DNA of 64,000 nucleotides from Phoronis australis (taxonomy: Eukaryota; Animalia; Phoronida), in NCBI GenBank assembly GCA_002633005.1, contig NMRA01000075.1:605-64604 (forward strand), read 5' to 3'. Positions within the stretch are counted from its first letter, which is position 1; each line of letters begins with the position of its first letter. Below, piece by piece: positions 261 through 59,619 of this stretch. A program made the position numbers and the translations under genes. The notes under the pieces are model-generated. The model was not told where the DNA came from and ran no database searches. It saw only the letters and a list, made by a program, of their open reading frames with translations.

Positions 261-348
261 CTGTAGCGTGTTCTCTGGATTTTCAAGATGTGGAAATTCC
301 CTCAATAACGCTCGTGCAATGAGGCCGTATTCCTTCTGGTCAGGGTAA
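261..348 (-). CDS. Exon encoding SAMD3-like domain segment (YPDQKEYGLIARALLREFPHLENPENTLQ)
   Basis: AG/GT boundaries, phase 2-0. YP...EY..IA.AL...FP.L resembles the conserved block of invertebrate/fish SAMD3-like proteins (recalled similarity, not searched). Confidence 0.6.
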
Positions 349-594
349 CTAAAAGAATAACATGAGACATTAGAAACACATAGAATAGCAAATGCCAACT
401 AAACTACGGTGTACCGCATTGTTCATTGGGACTGTTTTAAAGAGGTCCTTGAAAGCGAGAAATGGACTACATTTCACTAGCCAGAATAGTTCTCTGCCAC
501 TGAAACAGAATTCGTTCACCTGGAAAATATTTATTTTGGGAGACTATAACAGCCTTAGTTTGACTACGAAATCTCGTAGAGACAACATACTTAC

Positions 595-762
595 ATGTTA
601 TTGAACTTTTTATCTAAATCGTCCAATGCCGTGAGGATCAATGACGACTGTTCTGATTTACTCAACGGCTCTTTTTCTGTCAGCTTTTGTAACAAATGTT
701 TAGAAAGAGATTCCACTGGCCATTTATAATCTAAGGGAATGTGCTTCGTCTCTCCACTTGCA
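595..762 (-). CDS. Exon of the same gene (ASGETKHIPLDYKWPVESLSKHLLQKLTEKEPLSKSEQSSLILTALDDLDKKFNNI)
   Basis: ttttcAG acceptor, GTAAGT donor, 168 nt, phase 2-2, open frame joining in phase to exon 261-348. Confidence 0.6.
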
Positions 763-3565: not shown

Positions 3566-3960
3566 CTGTTTGGGTTACTGCATGAACTCACAGTTGCTGG
3601 TTGAGGGTCAACATGTTCATCCTCAGCAGGCAGCCGTGCATGACATGCACCCCTGAGAGTAATGTGTACTTTCGCTCTATCAGGCAACTCCTGAGGACTA
3701 TCCACCAAGACAATGTCGTTATCCCACTCAGGATCTTCATAATGCAGTTTCAATGGGGTGTCAGAATGGATTTTAAATAGTCTCTTAATTTCCAGTGGTA
3801 GCAGGCTTTTGTCACACACAACAATCTTACGTTGGTCTCCTTCATATTTCACCAAGTAGTTGAAACCACTTTTGTTCCCTGTTGTAAATGCAATGGTAGA
3901 TGTACTGTCACAGTTTATGACTAACTGTATCACGTGACAATCAGAACAAAGATCTAAGAA
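3566..3960 (-). CDS. Exon encoding PB1-like (ubiquitin-fold) domain
   Basis: Within ORF 3535-4011. ctgcAG acceptor, GTACAG donor, phase 0-2. VKYEGDQRKIVV...IKRLFKI...LKLHYEDPEWDNDIVLVDSPQEL resembles a PB1 basic strand plus OPCA-like acidic motif. Confidence 0.65.
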
Positions 3961-4126: not shown

Positions 4127-4530
4127 GGCCCGGTCTCTAATCTTTGTACTCGAGACGAACTCGAAACTATGTTTTTTTGTAATTTCTCTGCTCCTTTTGT
4201 GCGAACTTAAGATAATTGGTTAACAGACTGTGCTCAAATACATTACAGTTAATGCATAGGAGTTTCTAGTTCAAGTTTGCATTTGAAGACACTTATATTC
4301 GTGCTACAAACTCGAGTAAAAACTCGAAATTTCGAGTTCAAACTCGAACTTATTGCTTTAATATTGGGTTTTCAAACTGTGAACTAAGGGCAATAAATTA
4401 TCTACGTAAGTTATTGTGTACTCGAGCATAGAATAATAGACACTTATCTTGATTTCGCCCAAAAGTAGAGTAGAAAATGCCAAACCTAATTTCGAGTTCC
4501 ATTTCGAGTAAAAAGATTGGAGGCCCGGCC
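4127..4530. mobile_element. PIF/Harbinger-type MITE (about 400 bp), same family as 58678-59078
   Basis: Imperfect TIRs GGCCCGGTCTCTAATCTTTGTACTCG / CGAGTAAAAAGATTGGAGGCCCGGCC, flanked by TTG/CTG. Near-identical copy at 58678. Confidence 0.8.
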
Positions 4531-5241
4531 CTGGTACACAGACGCATGCCCCCAACTTGGCCACCCCAGTGTCAAACACACTGAATCATTCAGCGATTAT
4601 GGCACTTCACGTATCTACTGAAGAAAGCTACATGCATGTACGCAGCCTAAAACGGGAGGCTTAAATTTTTGAGAATGTGAACTTTTTACTAAGATTCATG
4701 GGGTATGTTCAGAAATTTGCATTCACCGAATGTTGGTAGTTTCNAGTTAATGCATAGGAGTTGCTAGTTCAAGTTTGCCCTTGAAGACACTTATATTCGT
4801 GCTACAAACTCGAGTAAAAACTCGAAATTTCGAGTTCAAACTCGAACTTATTGCTTTAATATTGGGTTTACAAACTGTGAACTAAGGGCAATAAATTATC
4901 TACGTAAGTCACTGTGTACTCGAGCATAGAATAATAGACACTTATCTTGATTTTGCCCAAAAGTAGAGTAGAAAATGCCAAACCTAATTTCGAGTTCCAT
5001 TTCGAGTAAAAAGATTGGAGGCCGGGCCCTGGTACACAGACGCATGCCCCCAACTTGGCCACCCCAGTGTCAAACACACTGATTCATTCAGCGATTATGG
5101 CACTTCACTTATCTACTGAAGAAAGCTACATGCATGTACGCAGCCTAAAACGGGAGGCTTAAATTTTTGAGAATGTGAACTTTTTACTAAGATTCATGGG
5201 GTATGTTCAGAAATTCGCATTCACCGAATGTTGGTAGTTTC
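4247..5241. repeat. 497-bp direct duplication (4247-4743 vs 4745-5241) across a single-n contig join; probable haplotype overlap artefact
   Basis: Near-identical copies abut exactly at n4744. Confidence 0.8.
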
Positions 5242-6434: not shown

Positions 6435-7559
6435 CTGGAATAGACTTCAACAACGTAGTGTAGCTCTAAAAAAGCTAGACTTCGCGAGATATAGCATGTA
6501 TTTTCAATCCGTTAGACAGTTATTGAACTCTACCCGGGAGAGCTATTTCAACCAATCCCTGTTCTGTTCTGTTCCCTGGTAACGTACAGGTTGGGGTGTA
6601 ACTTGTATTCTAACACACGGTTAATTGTGTATCGCCGCGAGAAAAAATCTAATCAAAATTACGTGCTCTAAACGATAATGCACGGCGATGTTTCGTAAGA
6701 TCTTGCTTTTCTAGCAAGCGTTATACATGTAGGATTCGACTAAGGATCCAGTGTGACGTCAGTGCTGCTGTCATCAAATGGATCACTTGATTGTTGGTGG
6801 ATGGTTTTTCACCGCAGTTTTGGAATAAGTCGTACAATTGCCGTTTTAGCACACTTTGTAAACGAGCTTTCAACTTTGTTGGTTGAGTTAGAATGCATCA
6901 TTCAGTTTTAGGTCAGATAGAAAATTCTTTATTCATTTCTGTTGAAATATGCCAAAACCGACTTCCGGTATTTTTATCTTGATGGCAAGCAAACCAGAGC
7001 TTAAAAAATAAGCATGATGTGTTTGGTCTCAACCAAATACTGACAGTGTTTATTTTGGAAAACCTTGAGAACTAATCAGAAGTACAACATTGGCTCCTAT
7101 CTGAAATAATGCGAAAATAGAGGCAAGATGTCCTCCAAGGACTTAAATTAACCCACGATCGCCCCAAAATGTTTTTGAAATAAATGTTTGGCTCGACAGT
7201 TGTGAGAAGTATGGCCATGCCTCTAAGCTACCACACGCTGTTGCAAACTGCCTGTTATGTGTTTTTGTTATTCACAGCAGCTTCCACCGATTACTAAAGT
7301 TTTCATCTAAACAAGTGAGTGCCCAAATGATGACATGTGTGCACTGACTTCACATATAGGTGCGTAGTTTTACCACAATGTGTGGATGTTCAGTTCTTTT
7401 ATGTTTGTTTTTTATCCCCACGTGCAGTGCCAGTAAAAGACACAATGTACTACCTATCAGCTTATAATCCACACTCGGTTGTTTCATCATCCCGCCATCT
7501 CTACTTTTCACTAACTCGCTAACACCCTCATCAACCATAGGTTCAGCTTCACCCGTTGA

Positions 7560-7700
7560 GTTTTCATGACTTTCCAGCTCCGACAGTAGTAACGGAAGCT
7601 GGGCTGACCGTACGCTTGCTCCCTTCTCCACAGCCGCGAGCTCTTGATCAATGCCTTCTTCCGAGAGATTTTGTTTCCTGCTCTGCCGCATGTAGTTCTG
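7560..7700 (-). pseudogene. Degenerate psq/CENP-B-type helix-turn-helix fragment, probably a pogo/Tigger transposase remnant
   Basis: RKQNLSEEGIDQELAAVEKGASVRSA resembles the psq HTH pattern (SEE.L..A..AV..G.S.R.A); the frame degenerates afterwards. Confidence 0.35.
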
Positions 7701-8885: not shown

Positions 8886-10373
8886 CTGTTGGAAGTTGCA
8901 TTGGATAAAAAACTTCCCCATCTACATCTACAGTGCATACATGCATGTGTGGTCAATTCGTGTCATTTATATGTTGCAGCGGGAAGTTTTTTTTTAACTT
9001 GGTTTTCGGGACTGTTCGTTGATTATGATTTTGCATCGTCTGAGTAGTAGCAGCAGGCATCGGTGTAGTAAAATGTGTTCAGTAAATTGGAAATTACCGT
9101 AGGTCAACTTACTCGATCGCTCTACATGATGGACTATTGCAGTGGCATCGGAAGATTGTGTTTAAGATTACAACACCTATAGTCCGTCATTTGAACAAGT
9201 GTCGAGAAAACTGCAGTCGAAACTGACCGCACGGAAGCGGAATTGTTTGGTTTATTTTGGCGTGTGCTGTAGTTTCTATGAGCTTAGAAATGAAATACAT
9301 GGCGATTCCTAGCGCGGGTAAAGCATATTGCATCACTAAACTGTTTATTAGAGTAAAAGGGCTTATGTGGTACTGGCATTACTGATTAGTGTTGAAACCA
9401 GCTAATCTGGGCGAAATACAGTTTTAATGTGATATATTATCGGTTACTTAAGGATATGCAAAATATTTGTTCCCTCGCAACACCAGTTCTGCACGCGACT
9501 ACGTTGACCGTGCAAGCAAATCATGGCACCCCTGCCAGTCTTCATGTTAAGCATGACGTCATTTGACGCTATGGATCCAGTCAAATGAAATTAAAATGAT
9601 GAAATTAAAAACAGTGATGGTCATGGGCAGAGTTAAGTAAAACATCAAACCACTTCAAACGTTAGGCCTATATTTCCTGGCCATGGACCTGATCATTCAC
9701 AATCCTTCTGAACTCCCAGGGAGCACAATGGGTGAAAGCTTTGTGCAAACCGCGTTGTCAGACCACATAGATTAATCCAAACACACGTACAGTTATGTCA
9801 AAAGAATCCAGTGCTCAATTAAATGAATCGGAAAAAGACCAGGAAAATTTTCGAAAATGTAATGTGTGTGTATATCAAATCGTTGTTGCACCTATTCACG
9901 TCACAATAGTGACAAATACTATGAATTTGAATTGATTAGTCCGACTCCAACCAGTTTTCTTTGGAACCACCATCTGTCCCTTCTGCCAACTAGGACCAAG
10001 TCATGTACAATTATAGCAATGTTTTCAACACGCGTGTACTACGCACCACATGACACTCACTTTGTTCATTGTGTGTGTCATTCTAGTGTTCGATTGTTCA
10101 AGTGTTCACAGTTTATCTGTTTGGATTCCCAAATGCGATATTTTGAGTCATGTTACGAAATTAAACATCTGGACTGATGTGGCATGGCTTGCTTAAACAC
10201 TTCTTTTTACCACTACACAAGAGAAGTGTTTCTCTCGGTAATCTGATGGCAGCAATATTAATGAAGAACGATAATGACGCCATGGTCACCATGTTAGTAA
10301 CAAGAACATTTAATAAACCATTATGATACTGCTTAAGTACTAACAGTTTCAAAAATATTTCACTGTTGCGTAC

Positions 10374-10523
10374 CTCAAGAATTTTCTTTATTTTTTTGAC
10401 ACGCTTAGGCTCCTCCATGTTATGGTCGCTCTCTTCCGTGTCATCGTCGCTCTCTTCCCCGACATCGTCCCTCAAGTATCCATAGTATTCCTTCCCACAG
10501 ACATCGTAAGCAGTTTTTCCTTC
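10374..10523 (-). CDS. Terminal ankyrin (C-cap) exon with acidic insert (EGKTAYDVCGKEYYGYLRDDVGEESDDDTEESDHNMEEPKRVKKIKKILE)
   Basis: tttacAG acceptor, GTACGC donor, 150 nt, phase 0-0. GKTAYD is a typical last-ankyrin-repeat start. Confidence 0.75.
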
Positions 10524-12264
10524 CTGTAAATTACATATTTTAATTCGCATCAAAATTAAAATGAGCAATACTTTCAAAAAAATAAAACTACATATAGCAT
10601 GCAACGGGTATCATAGACACAAGAATTAACGTTCACACGGGAACTTTTAGCCATAGTATTGTGCAATGCTTGCATGTGTAAGCTTGGCAAATTCAAACCT
10701 TAAGGAACTATCCTAGAACTAAGATGTACATGTATCAGCACAAAATACACAAACTGAAAAATTAAACTTGTGTCTTCAGTTGCAGCAGAATTCTTTGAAC
10801 TGGAAGATCCTTTCATGAACATTTATTGTTGATGTTCAAATGTAATAGCAGCCTAGTTTGCAACTAATCAAACGTTTAGATGCTATTGTAGTGTATACTG
10901 ACGGAAATGTTTCGATAATATATGTACATACATTACACATCAGCAATGACTTCCTTATATATACATACACACCATATGATTAATATACTTTTAAATGATT
11001 GACAGCAGTGGCACTAAGAACACGTTTTAAGAATAAGTTCGACAATAGGCAATTTGAACACCTTAAAGCTAACAAGCTTTCTCAACAACATTTCCTATAG
11101 AATTTATATCACTATTTTGACTTGAAAATATCAAGAAGTCTACTATCTGATATCTTCCCTATATCTATTTGATGGTCTTCAAATTTGCCAAACATTTTCT
11201 TACCGATTCCGTGAAAAACTATATCTTGTTAACTTGTACAGAATTAGGACTATAGCTATTAAGGAATATGGTCCCTATGTGTCTTATGTATTTCTGTAAT
11301 ATTTTACATGATAAACTGCTTACGTTTGACCTACATGTATTGATTTGGCACGTGTCAGAACTCAACTGTCTCCATCAACATTCAACTACGACGACACTCA
11401 GTTCAAAAGTATCCTGCAGCTGCATGCCACAAGGTCCTCTAGCAAATACGCTGACCATGGTACATGTATATAGGATATATTGACTTGCTTGGTGACTACA
11501 TGTACTAGAGAGTCCACATAGATAAATCACGATACATCGGCCAGATAGTGGCCTCTTAACTGGCCGCTAGGTTCATCTATATAAATTAAGAGTAACTCAT
11601 TATACATGTATATCGGATACATTGACTTTTCTATTGGCCGTTAGGATCGCACATACAAAGCCTCCTCTTTATGGTGAATTTGGAAACATTTAATATACTG
11701 ACCTCTTTACTTATCACCAAGAACACATATAATATCGGATGCATTGATTCCCGTAATGGCCACTAGGATAGTACATGCTTTTTCAAGGCCATATTTACAA
11801 AACATTATTTAACCAGTGCCACCAGAGGGTAAGACTTCTAGTTCGAACTTACGGTATAACGGATACATTCTATGCATGTATTTCTTAGGGTTGTGGCCGG
11901 TACGCCGCCTGTTGGTTTGATCGCAAAAACAAGGAACTCTTTAATGTAAGATTGATAGGAAATAAAATCTGATCATATTATGGGAACCATGGTTTTGGTA
12001 TCAATGCACCTTTCCTTCTTTCTTAAACCTTATTAACGATATGTTCACGTGACTCAAATAATGACAGATAAGTAAACGGTGACAAATCAAATTCAGCAGT
12101 TCCCTTAATGAAACCCAAATGTGTGTGTAAACACGACTGATACGGAACAAGTTGAAACCATTTCGACACCTGCTTGAGAAGTAGAGTGAGTTGCACTACA
12201 TCAGTAAGTCTGGAGAAAGACAATGATAACATACTTCAGAATTTGATTGGCACACTTATCTTAC

Positions 12265-12363
12265 CGTATTGGGAGCTGTGGCATCGACACCCTTTTTTAG
12301 AAGGAGTTCAACAACAGCTAGCTTGCCACGCCTAGACGCGAAGTGCAGGGGCGTGTCGCCTTC
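12265..12363 (-). CDS. Ankyrin repeat exon (EGDTPLHFASRRGKLAVVELLLKKGVDATAPNT)
   Basis: 99 nt = 33 aa, phase 0-0, AG/GTAAG boundaries, canonical G-x-TPLH-x-A...G...VV-x-LLL-xx-G-x-D. Confidence 0.92.
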
Positions 12364-12940
12364 CTACAACAAGCATTAAAACGACTGACAAACCATAAAT
12401 ATAATTACACCATTTCCATGTGTTTGGTGAACAACTCGTGTAAATGAAAGCGAGGTTGACCTATTTGAAGTCAAAATGTCAAAGAATATTATCAAAAATA
12501 AAACTGAGTTCAACACGAAGCATATATGATATCAAACATTATATGATTATTTTCATGCACATAGTAAAAGCAAAAGGAAAATATTTTAGAAGATTTTAAC
12601 AACATTTTTGAAATCTCGTGCTCAAGATGGATAGGAAATAAAATCTGATCATATTATGGGAACCATGGTTTTGGTATCAACACACCTTTCCTTCTTTCTT
12701 AAGCCTTAATAACGATATGTTCACGTGACTCAAATAATGAAAGATAAGTAAACGGTGAAAAATCCAATTCAGCAGTTCCCTTAATGAAACCCAATTGTGT
12801 GTGTAAACACGACTGATACGGAACAAGTTGAAACCATTTTGACACCTGCTTGAGAATTAGAGTGAGTTGCACTACATCAGTAAGTCTGGAGAAAGACAGT
12901 GATAACATACTTCAGAATTTGATTGGCACACTTATCTTAC

Positions 12941-13039
12941 CGTATTGGAGGCTGTGGCATCGGCACCCTTTTCTAGAAGGAGTTTAACAACATCTAGCTC
13001 GCCATCCTTAGACGCGAAGTGCAGGGGCGTGTCGCCTTC
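12941..13039 (-). CDS. Ankyrin repeat exon (EGDTPLHFASKDGELDVVKLLLEKGADATASNT)
   Basis: 99 nt = 33 aa, phase 0-0, AG/GTAAG boundaries, canonical ankyrin consensus. Confidence 0.92.
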
Positions 13040-13086
13040 CTACAACAAGCATTAAAACGATTGACAAACCATAAATATAATTACAN

Positions 13087-16000
13087 AGTGCAGTCTTCAC
13101 TTGACTGTGTAATGGATGGAAGGGGCTTTGAACAGCCTTGGCTACAGTAATACCTTGTAGAAGAAATTGTCTGTCTGCAATGCTGGGACACTGACAAGGT
13201 AACGTAATGCTGTGACTGACGTAGATCTCGTACATCCAGTGATGACGCGAAGACCAATGTTTTGGAGCCTCTCAAGTCTTTTGATTTGATTTTTACTGAT
13301 GTTGATCATGGTGAGAGCGTAGTCGAAGACCGAAGTGACCAGGGCTTTATAAAGCATGACGAGGTGCCTTTCCTCCGCCTTCCGACCAGCCGCAGCCCTA
13401 AGGGCATTAATTCCTCTGTTAGCACGGCTGATCATACTGTTAACTTGAGTTGTGAAGTTGAGCCTGTGGTCGAGTTCTACACCCAAGTGACGCATGTGGT
13501 CAGATGTTGCAATCAACTTCCCATCGTAGGTAGGGCAAGGGAAATCATCAACACTGAGGCGATTGTCCAGAGTACAGAAGAGAGCTTCACATTTGTCTCC
13601 ATTGCAGCTCATTCCGCTGGTAGCACAAAACTAGCAGATTTTCATCAATGAAGACTGTGCTTTGTGGAGAATCTCATGATGTGTTTGTCCTTGCGATGAC
13701 AGCAGCATGTCGTCTGCAAAGGAGCGAAGTCAGCAGTCAGCGCGGTTCAGTCTGGCGAGTGGGAGGGTGTAGATATTGAACAGCACTGGGGACAGAGATG
13801 AACCTTGGGGTAAGCCTGTGTTGACAGATACCCATTCTGAACGCCATGTGCGATGTTTTAGCATGCATCGCCGGCTGTTGAGGGCACTCATCACCCATCT
13901 AATGCATCTTACAGGAATACCGAGATGAAGCATGCCATTCGCAAGTTTTGGAAGTTGAACAGAATTGTACGCATCTTCTAGATCAAGGCCAATGAGGAGA
14001 GTGTTTTCTTTGTTTTCAAAACCTTGCCATATCTCATCTGCAACAGAAGCTGCATTGGCCCATGAATCTCTACCAGGTCGATAAGCACCCATTCCTGGGA
14101 GGAGCCAGGGTTCAATTAACTTGGTGATTCTTTGCGCCATGATCCTTTCAGGGATTTTTCCAATGACGTTCTGCATCACTATGATTCGATATCCCTTGAG
14201 TGCACGATGGTCTTTTCCAGGTTTTGGTACAGGAATTAAGAAGGCATCAGTCCAGATGTGAGGGATGATTCCAGTGGCCAAACTGACGTTGTAGGACTTC
14301 ACAAGCTTGGCCAGCAGAAAGTCAGGCAAAGACTTGAGTGTCGGGACTCTCATGCCATCGGGGCCAGGGGCACCCTCTTTGCAAGTTTTGATAGCATCCG
14401 CAACCTCTGCTGTAGAGAATTGACTGTCCTGTTCAGCTGTCTTGCAAAGTCCATCTAGTTGTTGGATGAGGAGGTTTCTTTCAGATTCATCACTGTGGTC
14501 ACTTTGCTGGATGAAACGCAGGAGAAAAGCCTCACCCTGTTCCCTGTCATTCCTGAGAATGGTGTTGCTTGCATTCAGTAGGATGGATCTGGGGGGAGCA
14601 CGTCTCTTGTCCATGTTACGATGGAAGTGCCAGAAATCTGTAGCTGTCAAGTTGGATCGGCTGCAAAGCTCATCCCATCGACGATTGGCAGCCTCGGATG
14701 CTGAGCGTTTGAACAGGGCAGTGGCCCTGTTTCTGGCTGTTCTGACGACCGTGAACTCTTCCGGTGTGCAGTTTTGNNNNNNNNNNNNNNNNNNNNNNNN
14801 NNNNNNNNNNNNNNNNNNNNNNNNNNNNNNNNNNNNNNNNNNNNNNNNNNNNNNNNNNNNNNNNNNNNNNNNNNNNNNNNNNNNNNNNNNNNNNNNNNNN
14901 NNNNNNNNNNNNNNNNNNNNNNNNNNNNNNNNNNNNNNNNNNNNNNNNNNNNNNNNNNNNNNNNNNNNNNNNNNNNNNNNNNNNNNNNNNNNNNNNNNNN
15001 NNNNNNNNNNNNNNNNNNNNNNNNNNNNNNNNNNNNNNNNNNNNNNNNNNNNNNNNNNNNNNNNNNNNNNNNNNNNNNNNNNNNNNNNNNNNNNNNNNNN
15101 NNNNNNNNNNNNNNNNNNNNNNNNNNNNNNNNNNNNNNNNNNNNNNNNNNNNNNNNNNNNNNNNNNNNNNNNNNNNNNNNNNNNNNNNNNNNNNNNNNNN
15201 NNNNNNNNNNNNNNNNNNNNNNNNNNNNNNNNNNNNNNNNNNNNNNNNNNNNNNNNNNNNNNNNNNNNNNNNNNNNNNNNNNNNNNNNNNNNNNNNNNNN
15301 NNNNNNNNNNNNNNNNNNNNNNNNNNNNNNNNNNNNNNNNNNNNNNNNNNNNNNNNNNNNNNNNNNNNNNNNNNNNNNNNNNNNNNNNNNNNNNNNNNNN
15401 NNNNNNNNNNNNNNNNNNNNNNNNNNNNNNNNNNNNNNNNNNNNNTCAATTAACTTGGTGATTCTTTGCGCCATGATCCTTTCAGGGATTTTTCCAATGA
15501 CGTTCTGCATCACTATGATGCGATATCCCTTGAGTGCACGATGGTCTTTTCCAGGTTTTGGTACAGGAATTAAGAAGGCATCTGTCCAGATGTGAGGGAT
15601 GATTCCAGTGGCCAAACTGACGTTGTAGGACTTCACAAGCTTGGCCAGCAGAAAGTCAGGCAAAGACTTGAGTGTCAGGACTCTCACGCCATCGGGGCCA
15701 GGGGCACCCTCTTTGCAAGTTTTGATAGCCTCCGCAACCTCTGCTGCAGAGAATTGACTGTCCTGTTCAGCTGTCTTGCAAAGTCCATCTAGTTGTTGGA
15801 TGAGGAGGTTTCTTTCAGATTCATCACTGTGGTCACTTTGCTGGATGAAACGCAGGAGAAAAGCCTCACCCTGTTCCCTGTCATTTCTGAGAATGGTGTT
15901 GCTTGCATTCAGTAGGATGGATCTGGGAGGAGCGCGTCTCTTGTCCATGTTACGATGGAAGTGCCAGAAATCTGTAGCTGTCAAGTTGGATCGGCTGCAA

Positions 16001-18050
16001 AGCTCATCCCATCGACGATTGGCAGCCTCATATGCTGAGCATTTGAACAGGGCAGTGGCCCTGTTTCTGGCTGTTCTGACGACCGTGAACTCTTCCGGTG
16101 TGCAGTTTTGGCGTGCACGGTCAAAATCCCGCTCTTTGGAGCGCTTGTTGGCCCAGGCAGTGTCAACATCTTTATTCCACCAAGTAGTGGGGTTCTGCCT
16201 CCTGTGGTGGCATACGTGCTTATGTAAGCTTTTGGCGTGTCTGCACACTGATTTCCAGATTTTATCCCCTTCGGTATTATTGTAGGACCGTTTATAAGTC
16301 GTTACTGGAGCCTTTAATTGGTGGTGTAGTTGAACTTCACACAAGTAGTGATCGCTTCCAGCTTGACAACTCCTACGCCACTCAGCACGGTCGCGAAGAT
16401 TGTCGCTGCTCAGAGCAAGGTCAATGCACGAGTCCTTGTCAAACGGTCTCTCAGCCATCCTAGTGGGTTCACCAGAGTTGAGAACATATAAATCTAGTTC
16501 TGGAAGGCATTCGGCGAGACCTTTACCATTTGGGTTCACACCGTAGACATCCCAGCTGGAATGACGAGCATTAAAGTCACCAACAATGAGAATGTCGGGA
16601 TAGATGTGAAGCAGATTGTGAAGAAAATTGGTCGCAACTAGGGGAGGAGTTTCCCCGTATATTCAGATTGACTAGTGTGAATGGGTCGCGGAAACCAGGA
16701 TCAGTGACGCTTATTATCTGTAGTTGCCTGTCAGTGTTAGTGAAACTGAGTATTCACAAGCTCTACCATGGTGTGGCTGTCTTTGTTGATTGCGTACGCC
16801 AGGCCATTGGTGATGCCCTCTCTAGGAATAATGAAACCTTCGAGTTCAAAGTCTGTCAGGTCCTTAAGTTTGGTTTCTTGGAACAGGAGAATGTCGTAGC
16901 CCGCACAGATTTTATCCAGTATATGCTTGCTGCCACGTATGTTACAGTAACCAATCCTGAGACGGTTGAGTTGAAGTCTTTCGTACTTGAGTTGTCGGGC
17001 ACGTTTTCCAGCTTTTTTACCTCTGTGTTTCTTTCTAGGACCGCGCTTTCTGGTGCCACGGCGGATGTTCTGTCTGGCTGCACTTTCCCAGTCGCGCCGT
17101 CCAGCATCCGTATGGACATTTACTTCTGTAATAAGTCTTGAAGCAGGCGATGGAGTAACGATAAGCCTGTTGAGGTTGTAACAACCTCTAAGCCCCCTAC
17201 GCCCAAAGGGGCAGGCTAACTGCGGCGGGTCAGTTCCCTACTGGCCTGGGGCTGCCAGGCTTAAGGCGGGCGGCAGCTGACCAATAAGGGTTAAAGAACC
17301 CCTCCCACTGTCATGCGTGGCCCCTGATGCCCACCCGACGCTGATGAGGTGATGGCTTAGAATCGGTAAGCTGCCACGCACCGGTATGTTCACTGACACA
17401 ATGTGGCAGCCGGGAGTGACCTCTCCCGGACCCCTGACCAAGAAGACAATCCGTCGTCTCCTGCCCTTCTGAATGTTGAGTGCATAGGACAAGTAAGGTA
17501 TCCAACAGACACTTCGTCCGCTCTGATGGGGGGGGTCGGCTCCACCTGCGGCTCTCTGCAGTTCTTCTGACCGTTGAGTGCCAGGGATGTGGAGAGCATC
17601 TGAAAGGCACCACGTCCTCTCAGCCAGAAAAACTAGTATTTTACAGGACAAGGTAGTAAGTCTTGAGCCCAACCAATGAAGGGTGCTATTTGCCCATAGC
17701 TGGGAGTTAGGTTGGTGAACGCCAGAGCATATCCATACACCGATGGGTCATGCACGTTGCACCTTTAAGAGCCTAACCTCTTCCGAGATCCCTTGCAAAA
17801 TTTAGCCTGGGGCCGCAGGGTGCCCAGTTACCATGGTGTACCACAAGGAGGTACTGCAAGAGTCTTGATTAGAGGTAGTTAAAGGCCACCAAGGCGGGTC
17901 TTACACATGCCTTCCTAATTCGTCTCATAGGACTAGGTGGTCGTAGAAGGTGAAAGCTAGAAAGTGTAAGCGCTAACTACACTAAGCTACAATAACTACA
18001 CATCTAACCCTGTGTCTAAGACACCACACCACATTAACGGGCTCTCTACT
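13087..18050 (-). mobile_element. Non-LTR retrotransposon (APE endonuclease + reverse transcriptase; I/Jockey group-like), inactivated
   Basis: APE motifs YCNIRG, FQET, GDFNARH, IDLALSS, SDH (about 16340-16960). RT motifs PGPDG, LDLEDAY, GLPQGSSLSP, FADD (near 13700-13720), LGVELD. In-frame TGA at 13730-13732 plus frameshifts. The 5' boundary is approximate and the 3' end is cut at n13086. Confidence 0.9.
14112..16110. other. Assembly gap (14777-15445) flanked by a 665-bp overlap (14112-14776 = 15446-16110)
   Basis: Same RT segment on both sides of the N run, offset 1334, only a few substitutions. Confidence 0.9.
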
Positions 18051-19739
18051 GACAATAAGACAATCGATGCAGTCACTGAATGTCATTTCCCCATAATTTG
18101 TGCTAAGTTGAAAAGTTTTTGCCATTAGTATAAAGCCTTTCTTCTGAAAGGAAACGTTAATGTCACTCTGTGAGAAAGGACAGGTATTTATACCTATGGC
18201 CTATAGAAGCGCTTGTAAAAAAGGTCCAGTTTCGGCACATGACTTTCCTTCATGTAACCTCATTCAGCCTCAATAACATCCAAAATCAGATCCTTGAAGG
18301 TACACACAGCAGCATATCACTTGACTCGTTTTTGTGCCCAAAATCAGACCCTGAACTAGACCAGAGTGTCACTACGTCTTCTTTAGCTTCAGTCCCTCAT
18401 GTTTCTTTCAGGAAAGGAAATAAGCTATTGTCCACACATGACTCATTGCCTATGAAACGGCATCCTCACCAACGAGGCTGACTTGTGTAGCAGTCAGATA
18501 TAGTTCCTCTTCATACACAAACAATCCACTGGCACATTGTCTTATGGTAACTTAGTACTGCGATTCACATTTCTCCAGGGCCACTCACTTTTACATTGTG
18601 CCATGCAGCACTGCTGGGTGTGGAAATGCTGTGGGAAGAGAAAGGAGTAACAAAGCTTGTGTATGTTGCAGCTTGAAGTGGCCTTATAATGTCACTGAAC
18701 CAAATATTGAAACATGAAAAATTAAGTACTCCAGGTTGGGTGAAAAACGATACCCCTGTTTTTCAAAAATTTGATATGGTGACTGCTCTACAATTTCACA
18801 CAAAGTTAAATAATTAATATTTTCAGAAAGCAAGGGTGTATATAATAAGTATTGTATAAAACTGCGTCTTTATTTTCCATTCGTAGCCATAATTCTTTAA
18901 ACGCATCACTTGTCTGCAAAATAGGCAAGTTTTTTGAGACAATTTCAAACCTTTGTTACCCATTTTTAAGCCTTTTCATTTTTGATTCATTCAGCAATTT
19001 TAAACTCCGATTACAGAACCATGGGTCTGTCAAGCATACTTCTAGTCTAAGACTGAGTGAACCGTATCTCAGACTTTTTATTTTTCTTCTAATAGAAGAT
19101 ATGAAGACTTGGGTCATTTAAAAAATGATGGATAATCTTTCTGTTGTTTAAGAGTAATTACAAATCTTAAGTAACCATCAAAAACGGAATTTTCACAAAA
19201 AATGGCAGTCATTTGAATTTATAAACGACTTGCAACATTTCAGTTCATGAGTTAAGACTATTAAGTGACTGAGAATTCAGAAAATGTAATATATTTTTAT
19301 GGGTTTACAATTGATAGCAAAACAGTTTCATGAAATAAACTTGAAGGAACTTAAGGTTAAGAATTACCTCACCCAAACATGTATTACCTGTTATTTCTAC
19401 ACATTCAGTTGCACCAAATATTACAACCCCAACCCCCTATGCCAATCCCCCGCTAAGGACCTGCATAAGTAAATTAACAAAATGACTTTCATACCTTTCT
19501 TTAAAAATAGCTGTTCCTTTTCAAAGGCTTTGTTCGTTGTCTCCAAAAGTAGGCTTTGACAACATAACTGCACTGCATGAGAAGATCTTGCTAGTTAGCT
19601 GCAGTCAATTGCTTAAAACCAATTTTTGTCCATTCAGGGACGGTGCAGAAGCGACACGTATCTCCTCTGCACGGTACAAGCCCTCAGACCTAAAAAACCA
19701 AAGGTCACGTAAAAACAGACATGATAGATTCCATTTCCG

Positions 19740-19917: not shown

Positions 19918-20524
19918 ACTAACCAATATAGAGTTGACAGCATAAACATTCAGCATTGATTTATGTAACTCTCACTGATAAACCTGTCAGAAATCATTCC
20001 AAACAATAATACTGCTTTGATGTACGAAAAGATCCCGAGTGCTACGTCAAGTATCGGAACACGCATCATAACAAACAAAGATTAACCCAACTGGTGACTG
20101 CAGTGAAGTGGACATCGGCGAGTACCTCACTTAACAGGCATCTGTAGAATAAACATGGAACAATTGTTAAAATAATCACAAACCTTACCTTTGTATAAGG
20201 GCGTGCTTACTTCCTCTCATAGAAGCACCCTGTTCACGCAATCTCAGATTCAGTTGGCACGGCTGCAAGCCATTTCACCATGTATTTAAAGGGCTTGCAA
20301 AATCAAGGCTGCTTATCTATCACCACTAGTACACGCGCGCCCTCTAGTTAATGTAAATTGTCCGAATAGCCCCATTAGTGCGGTTTTCCATTTCCATGCA
20401 GTTCTGTCAAAGCACAAGCAAAGAAAGGTCAGCTTTGTTTAATTTTATCTTACTTGGCATGATTCAACTTTACTTGCAGGTAAGCTGAGCTGCTATTTAA
20501 TATTTCTTGTTGATTTGACTTCAG

Positions 20525-20642
20525 GGGCAGCCATCCTTTGTCAAGTTGTTTAGATACCCTCATCTGGATGTATACAAAGATGCTGTAGCTCACAAGAGCT
20601 TCTTTAAAGCTGAAAAAGTTGAAATAAAGTGGAGCCATAATG
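20525..20642 (+). CDS. EIF2A: Eukaryotic translation initiation factor 2A, internal exon (GQPSFVKLFRYPHLDVYKDAVAHKSFFKAEKVEIKWSHN)
   Basis: Matches eIF2A PSFV.L..YP...A.KSFFKA.KV...W; AG/GTAACT boundaries, phase 0-1. Confidence 0.9.
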
Positions 20643-23418: not shown

Positions 23419-23487
23419 CCAAAAATGGTCCTGTGTACAGCGTCGAATGGAATCCGTCTTTACCACAGTTCTGTGTTGTCTATGGTT
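23419..23487 (+). CDS. EIF2A: eIF2A internal exon (AKNGPVYSVEWNPSLPQFCVVYG)
   Basis: KNGP.Y.V.WN....F..VYG signature; ttttcAG-type acceptor; followed by GTATCTTT donor. Confidence 0.92.
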
Positions 23488-37109: not shown

Positions 37110-37489
37110 CTGAAAGTGAATATTTAAAATGTGCCATTTATTTTATTCGCAAAATTATATCACAAGCTGTTGTTTGCTAACAAGTTTAAGAATTTTTCGT
37201 TTTTCCTGTTACGTTTCAGAGCACTTAAGGGCTGTCCCATTATGCATTTGATGCAGGTATTGAGGTATTGAGGAAACATTCGTCTATGACCCTTCCCTCA
37301 AGAGCCGGATGTAAACGTAAAAACAATACAACCAATGAATTATTCATACATCAAAGTAGCGCCACGGACAATGACTGGTAATCCTTCTGGAAGGAACGGC
37401 GCCAATTTTAAGGACGATGACTACTAGACTTACCGGAGAGACAGTCGGGATATAGTTGATTTTAAGGACGGTGTTGATGACAACAATAA

Positions 37490-37742
37490 TGAAGGCGATG
37501 GCGAAGATGACAGAGATGACAATGACGATGACGACGACATCGATGATAATGATGATGACGATGATGCGGATCACGATGATGTTGGTGATGATGATGATGA
37601 TGATGATGATGATGACGATGATGACGATGATAATGACGACGATGAGGATGATGATGACGATCACGATGATGATAATGATGATGATGATGATGATGAAGAT
37701 GATGATGATGATGAAGATGATGATGATGATGATGATGATGAT
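37490..37742. repeat. (GAT)n imperfect trinucleotide microsatellite, intronic
   Basis: Direct observation; explains the poly-M, poly-H and poly-I spurious ORFs. Confidence 0.97.
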
Positions 37743-37780
37743 ACGACAAAGGAAATGCACATCGAACACAATAGACCTAC

Positions 37781-38360
37781 CTGCTTCTGCGTAATAGATG
37801 ATTGTTGCAAAGAGTAACACGCCAGTGAATAAAAATATCAACATCAACAACAGCTCTTTTGTGCTAACTTTGATAGTGTACACCAAAATCTTGAAGGCTG
37901 TGTAGTGTTTCATAAGTTTGAAGATTCTTAACACTCGCACGATACGCATTATCATGACCACTTTCAGGAAAATATAGGGCGAATGAATTTGGTCTGTGGC
38001 GCGCAAGATCACAGTACAGTAGTGCGGTATCAAGCAGACGATATCAATCACGTTCAACGGCTGTTTCAGGAACTTGATTTTATCTGGACAGAAAATTATC
38101 CTGGCGATTACCTCTACCGAAAAAAATACAATGCACACGTAGTCCATGTGAATAATGGCGGGATGTGACACGAAATTGAGCACATCGTCTGCCGATATTT
38201 TGGAGCCATTTGCTTTGCAACAGCAGTCGACTGTGCCTGGGTCAGTGGCTTGGACATACGTTCCATTTACAAGTTCAACTACTTGAAAAAAGTAGTGTGT
38301 CTCCATGATGAATAAGGCAATCGACATCGCAACGAATATGAAGGACACAATTGTGATGGC
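37781..38360 (-). CDS. KCNC: Shaw/Kv3-type channel exon 3: S1-S5
   Basis: AITIVSFIFV...FFSVE...CPDK...LNVID...RIVRVLRIFKLMKH...KELLLM...YYAE; phase 0-1. Confidence 0.96.
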
Positions 38361-39036
38361 CTGAAAAAGAGAGAAGATACAACGACAATCACAAGACATG
38401 TGCGATTTGAAAACACTCCTTTCTTGAATGCTGGATTAAGGTTTTTCTGTACCCAAAGTTATACGAAATTTGGGGACCCCATCCCGGAAAATTCATTTCA
38501 ATTTTTACCGACCTACGCATTTAAAGTTCCTCTCTAAAACGATTTTAACCACCGGCCAAGGCGTTTCATCCAAGTACATGTACCTCAACAAGGCGGTGTC
38601 CATAATTTGAGCAGAGCCCAAAGCTTTCATGCTTTGACTATCCTCCTCTTACCCTGCAACAGCCACTGAATAGTTTCATAAGGAAAACAGAAACTGGGCC
38701 TGTATACATTGTCACGGCCACGACGGTGGGAGAACCGGTCTCCACCTCAGCCTAGAAATTTCAGATTTTACTTTAAAAGTGTAGTCTTTGGCTTGTTGAA
38801 CGAGGAACAGTAGCAGTGATATTTCCTGGAATGTTCTTCCATGCGTTAACTTCGCATACTTTGCTTCAGAAGGCTTCAGTTAGGATGATTACTACTTAAA
38901 TGGTAATCTACTAATTTGGTCAACAATAGGTTTTTTCAAATTTTCATTTTCATAGGCACATTTGGCCCTCCCCCGCTTTTACCGTATGAAAAATGAAATT
39001 TTCACGTTCTTTATCAAACGTGAAAAATGCGCTTGC

Positions 39037-39255
39037 CTTGGCCATTCTAGATGTCGCTGGATACTCCAAAAGCCGCCAAACTTTCTTCTGAAAGATCTTC
39101 CACTGGGAATCATTTTCGCTTATTGCTTCCTCCTCAGGAACCATGAAGTTGTCGTCTAAAGCCGCTAGGGTGTCTTTGTGTGACCTGTACTTGCTGTATA
39201 CTCCCCAGCAGCAGGGTTCTATGTCCATCTCCTCGAGACCCCAGTAGATTAGTTC
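39037..39255 (-). CDS. KCNC: Shaw/Kv3-type channel exon 2: end of T1 domain and T1-S1 linker
   Basis: ELIYWGLEEMDIEPCCW...KVWRLLEYPATSRMAK; phase 0-0; ends at an AAG/GCAAGC donor. Confidence 0.93.
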
Positions 39256-39739
39256 CTGAAATGAAGAAGAGGGTATACACTGTATAAGACGAGCTGGCCG
39301 CATCCGTTATTAGAGTCTTCCAAAAGTACATTGTAGACCTTTGCATCACAGGGTAGCGATTTATTGGATGCCTCAAAGCGGGTGTCACATCATTGACTAT
39401 GCGAGGAAGGTCAGGAGGGCTCTTTCCCCCAAGTGCAAACACAGAAGGGGCTATTACACGCCGTCAGACCTCCGATGCCTAAACAGTGCACAAAAGCGTA
39501 ACAAAGATAACCGTGTTGACAACACAGTCACTTGCTACATTGAGAATGATGAACACATGTTACGAACATTAGAGTCGCTTCTAATAATGTTTGAAAAAAA
39601 CTAGTTTGAATGAGCATCTAACTTGAACTCGAATTCGAAGGACCCTATCATTATTTAGGTGATCATTGCAATATGATGCACAGCAAAGCGTGTATAAATA
39701 TATGTGGGTATTTATATCGTCATAGTTGCGTATGACAGT

Positions 39740-58677: not shown

Positions 58678-59078
58678 GGCCCGGTCTCTAATCTTTGTAC
58701 TCGGAACGAACTCGAAACTATTTTTGGCAATTTCTCTGCTCCTTTTGTGCGAACTTAAGATAATTGGTTATCAGACTGTGCTCGAATACATTATAGTTTA
58801 TGCATAGGGGTTTCTAGTTCAAGTTTGCTCTTGAAGACCCTTATATTCGTGCTACAAACTCGAGTAAAAACTCGAAATTTCGAGTTCAAACTCGAACTTA
58901 TTGCTTTAATATTGGGTTTACAAACTGTGAACTAAGGGCTATAAATTATCTTCTTAAATTATTGTGTACTCTAGCATGGAATAATAGACACATATCTTGA
59001 GTTCGCCCAAAAGTAGAGTAGAAAATGCCAAACCTAATTTCGAGTTCCATTTCGAGTAAAAAGATTGGAGACTGGGCC
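58678..59078. mobile_element. PIF/Harbinger-type MITE (401 bp)
   Basis: TIRs GGCCCGGTCTCTAATC / GATTGGAGACTGGGCC and a perfect CTG TSD (CWG type); homologous to 4127-4530. Confidence 0.85.
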
Positions 59079-59619
59079 CTGGACTCTACTGTTGGTTCAG
59101 ACCTCGAACCGCGTTTCAATGCCGAAGTTATTCTTTTCGTTGTTCTAGATAGTAAAATAGATTGAAGCATTTCCCGTCACAATACACTAACCGGAAGCTG
59201 AGCTTGCCATGTTAACAGGGTGGCGCCTCCTCTAGGATATTTTGCAAGAAAATGTTGGAGTTGACAATCTGTTGCCTATAATATATGAGATTTAATTATT
59301 TTTCAGAAAGAGCTGTGTGGTGCGTAAGAACAAATTTCTGTCCAAGTCTTGAGTCATTTTTCATGAAACAAACCTCAGACGTTGATTGCAAAACACCACA
59401 TTCGTGACGCACACGCTCCATTTGCTCGATTTTTGGTTTGGTAAGGCGACCTCCTTTGCTAGATGGTGATTAAACTTTGCTGAAGCAAATTTGCTCAGGC
59501 TCTCGAGTGGTGGAAAGTAAATATTCACGTTAAAAAAGGGAAGAAACTTTTGGCAATTTGTTATGAATTGTGAGCAAACGTGTGAAAAGAGCGAAATATA
59601 GGGATTGGCCAACATATAT

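What the first reader, a model, noticed from the sequence alone, without database searches (positions are those of the whole stretch)
11948..13085. Tandem ankyrin-exon cassettes whose exons diverge faster than their introns, almost only by amino-acid changes
Seen: two 676-bp cassettes each hold one 99-nt phase-0 ankyrin exon. By manual alignment the exons differ at 10 of 99 nt (9 non-synonymous, 1 synonymous; 8 amino-acid changes), while the alignable intron flanks differ at about 13 of 363 nt. Five of the eight amino-acid changes alter charge (R>D, K>E, A>D, E>K, K>E). The RR>KD change sits at the two positions after TPLHxAx. Established: those two positions are target-contacting variable positions of ankyrin repeats and are randomised in DARPins. 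Inference: a diversifying, modular binding array, with introns homogenised by unequal crossover and exons under positive selection or combinatorial splicing, possibly an innate-immune or non-self sensor. The second cassette is cut by the n13086 join, so more units may be collapsed. Only two copies are visible, so statistical support is thin.
Basis: partly seen in the sequence, partly recalled or inferred. Interest (0 to 1): 0.8.

Follow-up and report, generated by a model that had tools for sequence, protein, structure and literature searches.

The report
Animal DARPin-like ankyrin exon array
An expressed animal gene builds its ankyrin binding surface from near-identical one-repeat exon cassettes whose variation piles up at the positions engineers randomise in designed ankyrin binders, so it likely works as a fast-diversifying recognition protein, of a design published for brown algae and fungi.

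Summary
For the pair alone dN/dS 3.4 is not significant (p=0.28). Public reads from other individuals show the exon is transcribed and spliced both to another ankyrin exon and to the next exon, and that cassette DNA is roughly tenfold deeper than single-copy DNA, so more units exist. Across copies, amino-acid changes concentrate on DARPin-type binding positions (15 of 47 possible, against 10 of 81 synonymous, p=0.01), while 22 other codons show 2 of 137. RNA alone is not significant (p=0.42), and the reads pool paralogues. The gene continues downstream, likely into a ubiquitin-like domain; its 5' part is hidden at the contig join. Best reading: a diversifying recognition array (0.6). Immune role, unequal crossover and combinatorial splicing are inferred or untested. 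The design is published for brown-algal LRR/TPR exons and fungal ankyrin NLRs; this scan had already noted it in feather stars and on another piece of this genome.

The parts
11948..12623 (-). Cassette 1, full 676-bp unit (intron flanks plus ankyrin exon); carries a short dispersed repeat near 12116-12160
   Evidence: dispersed repeat from two-strand RNA depth and loose ends
12624..13085 (-). Cassette 2, 462 nt visible, 95% identical to cassette 1, cut by the contig join at 13086
12265..12363 (-). Ankyrin exon 1 (99 nt, phase 0-0), last full repeat before the cap exon
   Evidence: Pfam PF00023 36.3 bits; RNA joints at both ends
12941..13039 (-). Ankyrin exon 2 (99 nt, phase 0-0)
   Evidence: Pfam PF00023 38.2 bits; splice sites
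10374..10523 (-). 150-nt phase 0-0 exon: ankyrin capping start, acidic tract, basic stretch; not the last exon
   Evidence: RNA joint from the ankyrin exon (9 reads in X7); 52 reads of X7 leave at its donor
7454..7697 (-). Candidate next exon (244 nt, phase 0 to 1), linker-like; link to the gene inferred
   Evidence: splice sites and open frame; first codons resemble the paralogous RNA continuation; no read shows this joint
3592..3878 (-). Candidate exon (phase 1 to 0) for a ubiquitin-like/PB1/CIDE-N-type domain; link and fold inferred
   Evidence: ESM Atlas leads at 0.82-0.92; no Pfam or PDB sequence hit; low-confidence model
261..762 (-). Two further candidate exons (762-595, 348-261) in mutually compatible phase; the gene may run out of the window
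   Evidence: no family found
13086..13086 (.). Single-N contig join where further cassettes and the 5' part of the gene are likely collapsed or missing
   Evidence: depth; upstream ankyrin exons seen in RNA have no match in the window
13087..17900 (-). Non-LTR retrotransposon (reverse transcriptase) beyond the join; left end approximate to the join, right end approximate
   Evidence: Pfam RVT_1 E=5e-19; ORFs

Best explanation
This is the end of a multi-copy array of one-ankyrin-per-exon cassettes in an expressed, spliced animal gene, and the array likely acts as a diversifying binding surface whose target-facing codons are likely under positive selection while the framework is held fixed. Shown: symmetric phase-0 exons, transcription from the minus strand, ankyrin-to-ankyrin and ankyrin-to-cap splicing, many more copies in another individual's DNA, and amino-acid variation concentrated at codons 1, 3, 8, 10-12, 14, 16, 24 and 31. 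Inferred: near-identical intron flanks let whole cassettes be gained, lost and reordered by unequal crossover or conversion without breaking frame; selection then keeps changes at the concave face; each allele or paralogue would present a different row of specificities. Inferred further: the ankyrin arm is followed by a cap, an acidic linker and a likely ubiquitin-like domain that would pass the signal on or oligomerise, which fits an intracellular sensor of fast-changing non-self proteins.
For: Pair in the window: exon 10 of 99 vs flank 13 of 363, only 1 difference in the 46 nt upstream of the exon and 3 in the 117 nt downstream. RNA: ankyrin-to-ankyrin joints in X5 (8 reads, 7 starts) and X7 (2+3 reads); ankyrin-to-cap joint with GT-AG ends in X7 (9 reads, 8 starts). 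DNA contigs of X1: flank depth about 1100-1590 against about 125 in single-copy DNA, 9-13 fold. Variant table (40 of 45 rows shown): 39 rows in the exon, 1 in the flanks. Amino-acid-changing alleles 15 of 47 possible at seven DARPin positions vs 14 of 164 elsewhere (p=1.6e-4) and vs 10 of 81 synonymous (p=0.010); 2 of 137 at the 22 codons outside the DARPin seven and codons 8, 10, 14, 16. Ten of 20 positions that are tolerant in 1346 unrelated ankyrin repeats show no amino-acid row here, mostly on the second helix. Solved DARPins vary at the aligned positions 3, 8, 11, 12, 24, 31. Precedent: PMC3341825, PMC11378527, PMC4986451 (passages read).
Against: The pair alone does not reject neutrality (N vs S p=0.28). 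Whole-exon N/S ratio is 1.1 over all rows and 1.7 in X1 (p=0.37). In raw RNA reads alone the DARPin-site excess is not significant (8 of 47 vs 9 of 81, p=0.42; with codon 8, p=0.098). The variable sites correlate with positions that any ankyrin tolerates (rho 0.58). The reads come from other individuals (X1 differs at 16 of 459 and 18 of 420 single-copy letters) and pool paralogues; alleles are unphased and counted once; assembled contigs drop rare variants, which favours clustered exon changes over isolated intron or synonymous ones. No ligand, no immune induction and no effector domain of a known family was shown.
Confidence: 0.6

Rival explanations
1. Ordinary recent repeat expansion under relaxed purifying selection: young exon duplicates look homogeneous because they are young, and differences collect at positions that ankyrins tolerate, with no selection for diversity.
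For: N vs S not significant for the pair or for RNA alone; site pattern tracks generic ankyrin tolerance; Persi et al. report that paralogous repeats usually evolve fast with dN/dS below 1 and that most homogenisation reflects recent duplication (PMC5120217, abstract and passages).
Against: Relaxed selection cannot make exons diverge faster than their own introns (p=0.016 for the pair; 17 of 99 vs at most 5 of 127 positions in X1 at equal depth threshold, p=0.001); half of the generically tolerant positions show no amino-acid row; several codons carry changes at all three positions.
Confidence: 0.22
2. Exon diversity is imported, not selected in place: short conversion tracts from more distant ankyrin paralogues overwrite the first-helix segment, while flanks are homogenised within the array or conserved for splicing.
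For: Changes cluster at codons 8-16 with multi-base differences; diverged ankyrin paralogues are expressed (loose ends); synonymous alleles in the exon (5 of 81 in X1) also exceed the flank rate (p=0.018 at the worst-case flank count), though 3 of these 5 lie in codons with other changes.
Against: Imported tracts should bring many synonymous changes at framework codons; only codons 6, 15, 20 and 22 show them, and variable codons 1, 3, 24 and 31 lie outside the cluster.
Confidence: 0.12
3. Assembly artefact: two alleles of one exon joined head to tail.
For: This assembly has such-looking duplicates across joins (4247-4743/4745-5241 and across the gap at 14777-15445).
Against: The cassette junction at 12623/12624 has no N; those duplicates differ by about 2% (11 of 497, 12 of 660) against 10% for the exons; RNA reads join ankyrin exon to ankyrin exon; cassette depth is many times single-copy depth.
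Confidence: 0.03

Closest known systems
Brown-algal ROCO LRR and NB-ARC-TPR genes with one repeat per exon (Zambounis et al. 2012, PMC3341825; Teng et al. 2024, PMC11378527; passages read)
   Same: One repeat unit per symmetric exon in tandem, selection reported on the concave binding face, proposed immune receptors; alternative splicing of repeat exons reported there.
   Different: Ankyrin instead of LRR or TPR; animal; phase 0 instead of phase 2; no Roc-COR or NB-ARC domain seen in this window; no inverted intronic spare exons found.
Fungal NLRs with highly internally conserved ankyrin repeats, e.g. Podospora Pa_3_8560 (Dyrka et al. 2014, PMC4986451; passages read)
   Same: Ankyrin repeats under concerted evolution with positively selected sites on the inner helices and hairpin loop; repeat-number polymorphism.
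   Different: Here each repeat is its own exon inside conserved intron flanks; no NACHT domain seen; the visible pair is 76% identical in protein, under their 85% threshold. That paper finds highly conserved repeats rare in animals (0.8%).
DARPins (designed ankyrin repeat proteins; PMC4384111 and PMC8229355, passages read; PDB 6mol, 5leb alignments)
   Same: Fixed 33-residue framework with variable residues on the turn and first helix, flanked by a capping repeat.
   Different: Natural, and also variable at codons 10, 14 and 16; no binding shown.
Dscam and SpTransformer invertebrate diversification systems (PMC13428168, passages read)
   Same: Invertebrate recognition diversity from duplicated exons or elements.
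   Different: Dscam uses mutually exclusive exons, whereas here ankyrin exons are spliced in series; different folds; the review has no occurrence of 'ankyrin'.

Membership tests
Ankyrin repeat (Pfam PF00023) | Score above the curated cut-off over the full repeat | tested here: met
   38.2 and 36.3 bits vs 21.1, profile positions 1-32 of 33
Brown-algal exon-shuffling ROCO / NB-ARC-TPR receptors | Each repeat encoded by one symmetric exon, spliced in tandem | tested here: met
   99-nt phase 0-0 exons; repeat-to-repeat joints in RNA
Brown-algal exon-shuffling ROCO / NB-ARC-TPR receptors | Repeat type LRR or TPR | tested here: not met
   ankyrin
Brown-algal exon-shuffling ROCO / NB-ARC-TPR receptors | Roc-COR or NB-ARC domain in the same protein | tested here: inconclusive
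   No Pfam hit of that kind in the 5 same-strand downstream frames scanned; the 5' part is hidden and the gene may leave the window
Brown-algal exon-shuffling ROCO / NB-ARC-TPR receptors | Positive selection at concave-face sites | tested here: inconclusive
   p=0.010 pooled, p=0.002 in X1 contigs, p=0.42 in RNA alone; no site model could be run on unphased alleles
Brown-algal exon-shuffling ROCO / NB-ARC-TPR receptors | Spare or inverted repeat exons in introns; alternative splicing of repeat exons | tested here: inconclusive
   No extra ankyrin exon on either strand of the window; 151-nt reads laid on one unit cannot show skipping
Fungal HIC-ankyrin NLRs | Over 85% internal identity across at least 100 residues of repeats | tested here: inconclusive
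   Only 66 residues visible, 25 of 33 identical (76%), 89 of 99 nt identical
Fungal HIC-ankyrin NLRs | NACHT or NB-ARC domain upstream of the repeats | not testable with these tools
   Upstream part lies beyond the join at 13086; no genome held
Fungal HIC-ankyrin NLRs | Repeat-number polymorphism between individuals | not testable with these tools
   No long reads or second DNA sample offered
DARPin-like variable surface (works like) | Variation enriched at the library-randomised positions | tested here: met
   15 of 47 vs 14 of 164, p=1.6e-4; positions 3, 11, 12, 24, 31 checked against solved DARPins, positions 1 and 33 recalled

The most novel reading that the evidence does not exclude
An animal-wide, so far undescribed family of natural DARPin libraries: ankyrin exon cassettes with homogenised flanks that are reshuffled in the germline, and perhaps skipped combinatorially or recombined somatically, and that are bolted onto interchangeable output domains (a ubiquitin-like module here; a protease or ROCO-death-fold modules in other notes of this scan), giving invertebrates an intracellular variable-receptor repertoire.
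Probability: 0.22. Interest if true: 0.85.

Novelty: new variant of a known kind. Interest (0 to 1): 0.6.

Why it matters
If right, an animal uses the engineering logic of DARPins as a natural variable receptor, extending to animals and to ankyrins a design described in brown algae (LRR/TPR exons) and fungi (ankyrin NLRs). It gives a compact, testable locus for the open question of how invertebrates diversify intracellular non-self recognition, and a source of naturally selected ankyrin binding surfaces. Five literature searches for an animal ankyrin exon array of this kind listed no such paper, in an open-access library only.

Tried and rejected
No whole genome is held, so other cassettes could not be collected. 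No indexed RNA holder was listed; RNA came from three raw-read runs of the same species label. Protein searches found no close relative: cap exon 0 of 28 candidates; single-repeat search returned generic long ankyrin proteins, best 23 of 33 identical; three-row alignment search gave 372 generic ankyrin proteins, mostly fungal among the named; eIF2A-like exon 0 of 1 candidate, so the organism is not identified beyond an intron-rich animal. The downstream domain: no Pfam or PDB sequence hit, single-sequence model pLDDT 48 and fold search with best Z 2.8 are uninformative; the 762-595 exon gave no usable Atlas hit. I first read exon 10523-10374 as terminal and dropped that after finding RNA leaving at its donor. 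Three RNA loose-end motifs have no match in the window. The QRB Discovery repeat survey (PMC10392669, passages) has no occurrence of 'ankyrin'; a SAMD3 search gave nothing relevant; PMC8602657 gave no position list. Look-ups for look-alike DNA in earlier notes were empty.

Full report
Observation. The window holds a direct repeat with 676-nt spacing at 11948 and 12624. The second copy is 462 nt long and ends at the single N at 13086; the junction between the copies has no N. Each copy holds a 99-nt minus-strand exon with AG/GT ends in phase 0 (12265-12363, 12941-13039) that passes the Pfam ankyrin cut-off. Exon vs flank gives p=0.016 and non-synonymous sites vs flank p=0.005, but N vs S gives p=0.28, and an unplanned 99-nt window would reach 10 differences in 23% of shuffles. 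So the pair alone is suggestive, not proof.

Is it real and expressed? No genome is held. Four DNA runs of one sample hold 33-38% of the sampled words, and three raw RNA runs share their species label. I laid three RNA runs (about a fifth of each was read) and one of the four DNA runs on 9900-12623, which holds one cassette: 96, 69 and 171 RNA reads were laid. On the exons first mates lie on the plus strand, which in most stranded libraries means a minus-strand transcript. Reads join the ankyrin exon to the exon at 10523 with GT-AG ends (9 reads in X7, 2 more with one letter between in X6, none in X5) and join ankyrin exon to ankyrin exon (8 reads in X5, 2+3 in X7). DNA contig depth is mostly 106-174 over 9900-11173 and 1100-1590 on the flanks next to the exon, 9-13 fold; the tool warns that this is no copy number, and it sums paralogues. 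X1 differs from the window at 16 of 459 and 18 of 420 letters in single-copy pieces, so it is another individual or a close species. Mis-joined alleles are therefore unlikely: the duplicates that do straddle joins in this window differ by about 2% (11 of 497, 12 of 660).

More copies. Laying the same four runs on 12215-12440 (82% likeness, 5% share) listed 40 of 45 substitution rows: 39 in the exon, 1 in the 127 nt of flank. By the tool's tally X1 has 32 changes; 27 are shown in the exon, 1 in the flank, and 4 are not shown, which I counted as flank to be conservative. At a common depth threshold of 70, 17 of 99 exon positions vary against at most 5 of 127 (p=0.001). Amino-acid-changing alleles fall at codons 1, 3, 8, 10, 11, 12, 14, 16, 24, 26, 30 and 31; none is listed for G2, T4, P5, L6, H7, A9, G13, L15, V17-K23, G25, D27-T29, N32, T33, although the window's own pair differs at 19 and 23. 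Solved DARPins vary at aligned positions 3, 8, 11, 12, 24 and 31; reviews state seven randomised positions on the turn and helix (PMC4384111, PMC8229355, passages); that codons 1 and 33 belong to the seven is recalled. At those seven positions 15 of 47 possible amino-acid-changing alleles occur, against 14 of 164 elsewhere (p=1.6e-4) and 10 of 81 synonymous (p=0.010). In X1 alone it is 9 of 47 vs 2 of 81 (p=0.002); in raw RNA alone 8 of 47 vs 9 of 81 (p=0.42). Over the whole exon N/S is 1.1 to 1.7, not significant. Limits: alleles are unphased, classed one step from the reference, pooled over paralogues and individuals; contigs drop rare variants, which favours clustered changes. A control on 1346 unrelated repeats shows that the variable sites track generic tolerance (rho 0.58; four framework positions were fixed by my selection pattern), yet 10 of the 20 tolerant positions show no amino-acid row here.

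The rest of the gene. Exon 10523-10374 starts like an ankyrin cap and carries an acidic tract. It is not terminal: 52 reads of X7 leave at its donor and continue (by hand translation) KHMRFKQQSG; that sequence is not in the window, so those reads come from a paralogue or distant allele. The next in-phase candidate in the window, 7697-7454, starts NYMRQ and ends in phase 1; 3878-3592 picks up in phase 1. The ESM Atlas places the latter nearest an unnamed cluster (0.92) and then CIDE-N, TDP-43 N-terminal, PB1 and other ubiquitin-like families (0.82-0.88, leads only); Pfam, PDB sequence search and a low-confidence model add nothing. Further candidates at 762-595 and 348-261 recall SAMD3-like proteins, from memory only. 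None of these downstream joints was seen in RNA. Other reads show paralogues with a shorter cap and different ankyrin exons spliced upstream of the cassette exon; those have no match in the window, and a profile scan finds only the two exons. Beyond the join lies a reverse-transcriptase element. The 5' part is therefore unseen.

Mechanism. Symmetric exons within near-identical flanks can be added, lost or reordered by unequal crossover without a frameshift (inference from established exon-phase rules). Purifying selection holds the fold, and the excess of changes on the first helix and turn is best read as selection for new binding specificities (0.6). Rivals: young duplicates under relaxed selection (0.22; PMC5120217, abstract and passages), imported conversion tracts or flanks conserved for splicing (0.12), artefact (0.03). 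An immune role rests on analogy, not on any test here.

Comparison. It works like the brown-algal ROCO and NB-ARC-TPR genes (PMC3341825, PMC11378527; passages) and like fungal NLRs with conserved, positively selected ankyrin repeats (PMC4986451; passages). It is not filed as a member of either: the repeat type differs from the first, and no nucleotide-binding domain was seen. Searches for an animal ankyrin exon array listed no such paper (listings only, open-access library; no supplements read). Earlier unchecked notes of this scan describe the same pattern in feather stars and on another piece of this genome; I did not test them and they are not counted as support, but they mean the scan has met this design before.

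Verdict. Real, expressed, multi-copy and probably under diversifying selection; a new variant of a known design, with a possibly different downstream module. Interest 0.6.

Noticed in passing
window 13087-17900: Non-LTR retrotransposon on the minus strand; about 660 nt of it (14112 onward) recur at 15446 across the 669-N gap with 12 differences, likely two alleles or copies joined by the assembler.
   Followed up: partly
window 4247-5241 and 58795-59094: 498-nt duplication exactly across the single N at 4744 (11 of 497 differences), with a third 91% copy at 58795: a dispersed repeat at a contig join, used as a control.
   Followed up: partly
window 20525-20642 and 23419-23486 (+): eIF2A-like exons (weak Pfam PF08662 hit, E=0.0015, for the second; the first by recall). 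The 5' part of this gene was not seen on the plus strand.
   Followed up: partly
window 19496-19687, 20125-20148, 20186-20260 (-): Exon-like stretches with donor and acceptor signals on the minus strand upstream of the retrotransposon; could be untranslated 5' exons of the ankyrin gene or a local inversion. No reads were laid there.
   Followed up: no
window 37344-39463 (-): Ion-transport (PF00520) gene with motifs of a voltage-gated potassium channel and a long acidic trinucleotide tract at 37457-37754.
   Followed up: no
window 1323-1309 and 966-937 (-): Candidate 15-nt and 30-nt microexons with good splice signals between the ubiquitin-like exon and the 762-595 exon; frame not resolved.
   Followed up: partly
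window 10391-10495: The acidic tract of the cap exon is replaced or absent in paralogous RNA reads (27 and 38 reads with other letters in X7; a short cap in 14, 10 and 20 reads of X5, X6, X7), a second variable region of the family.
   Followed up: no
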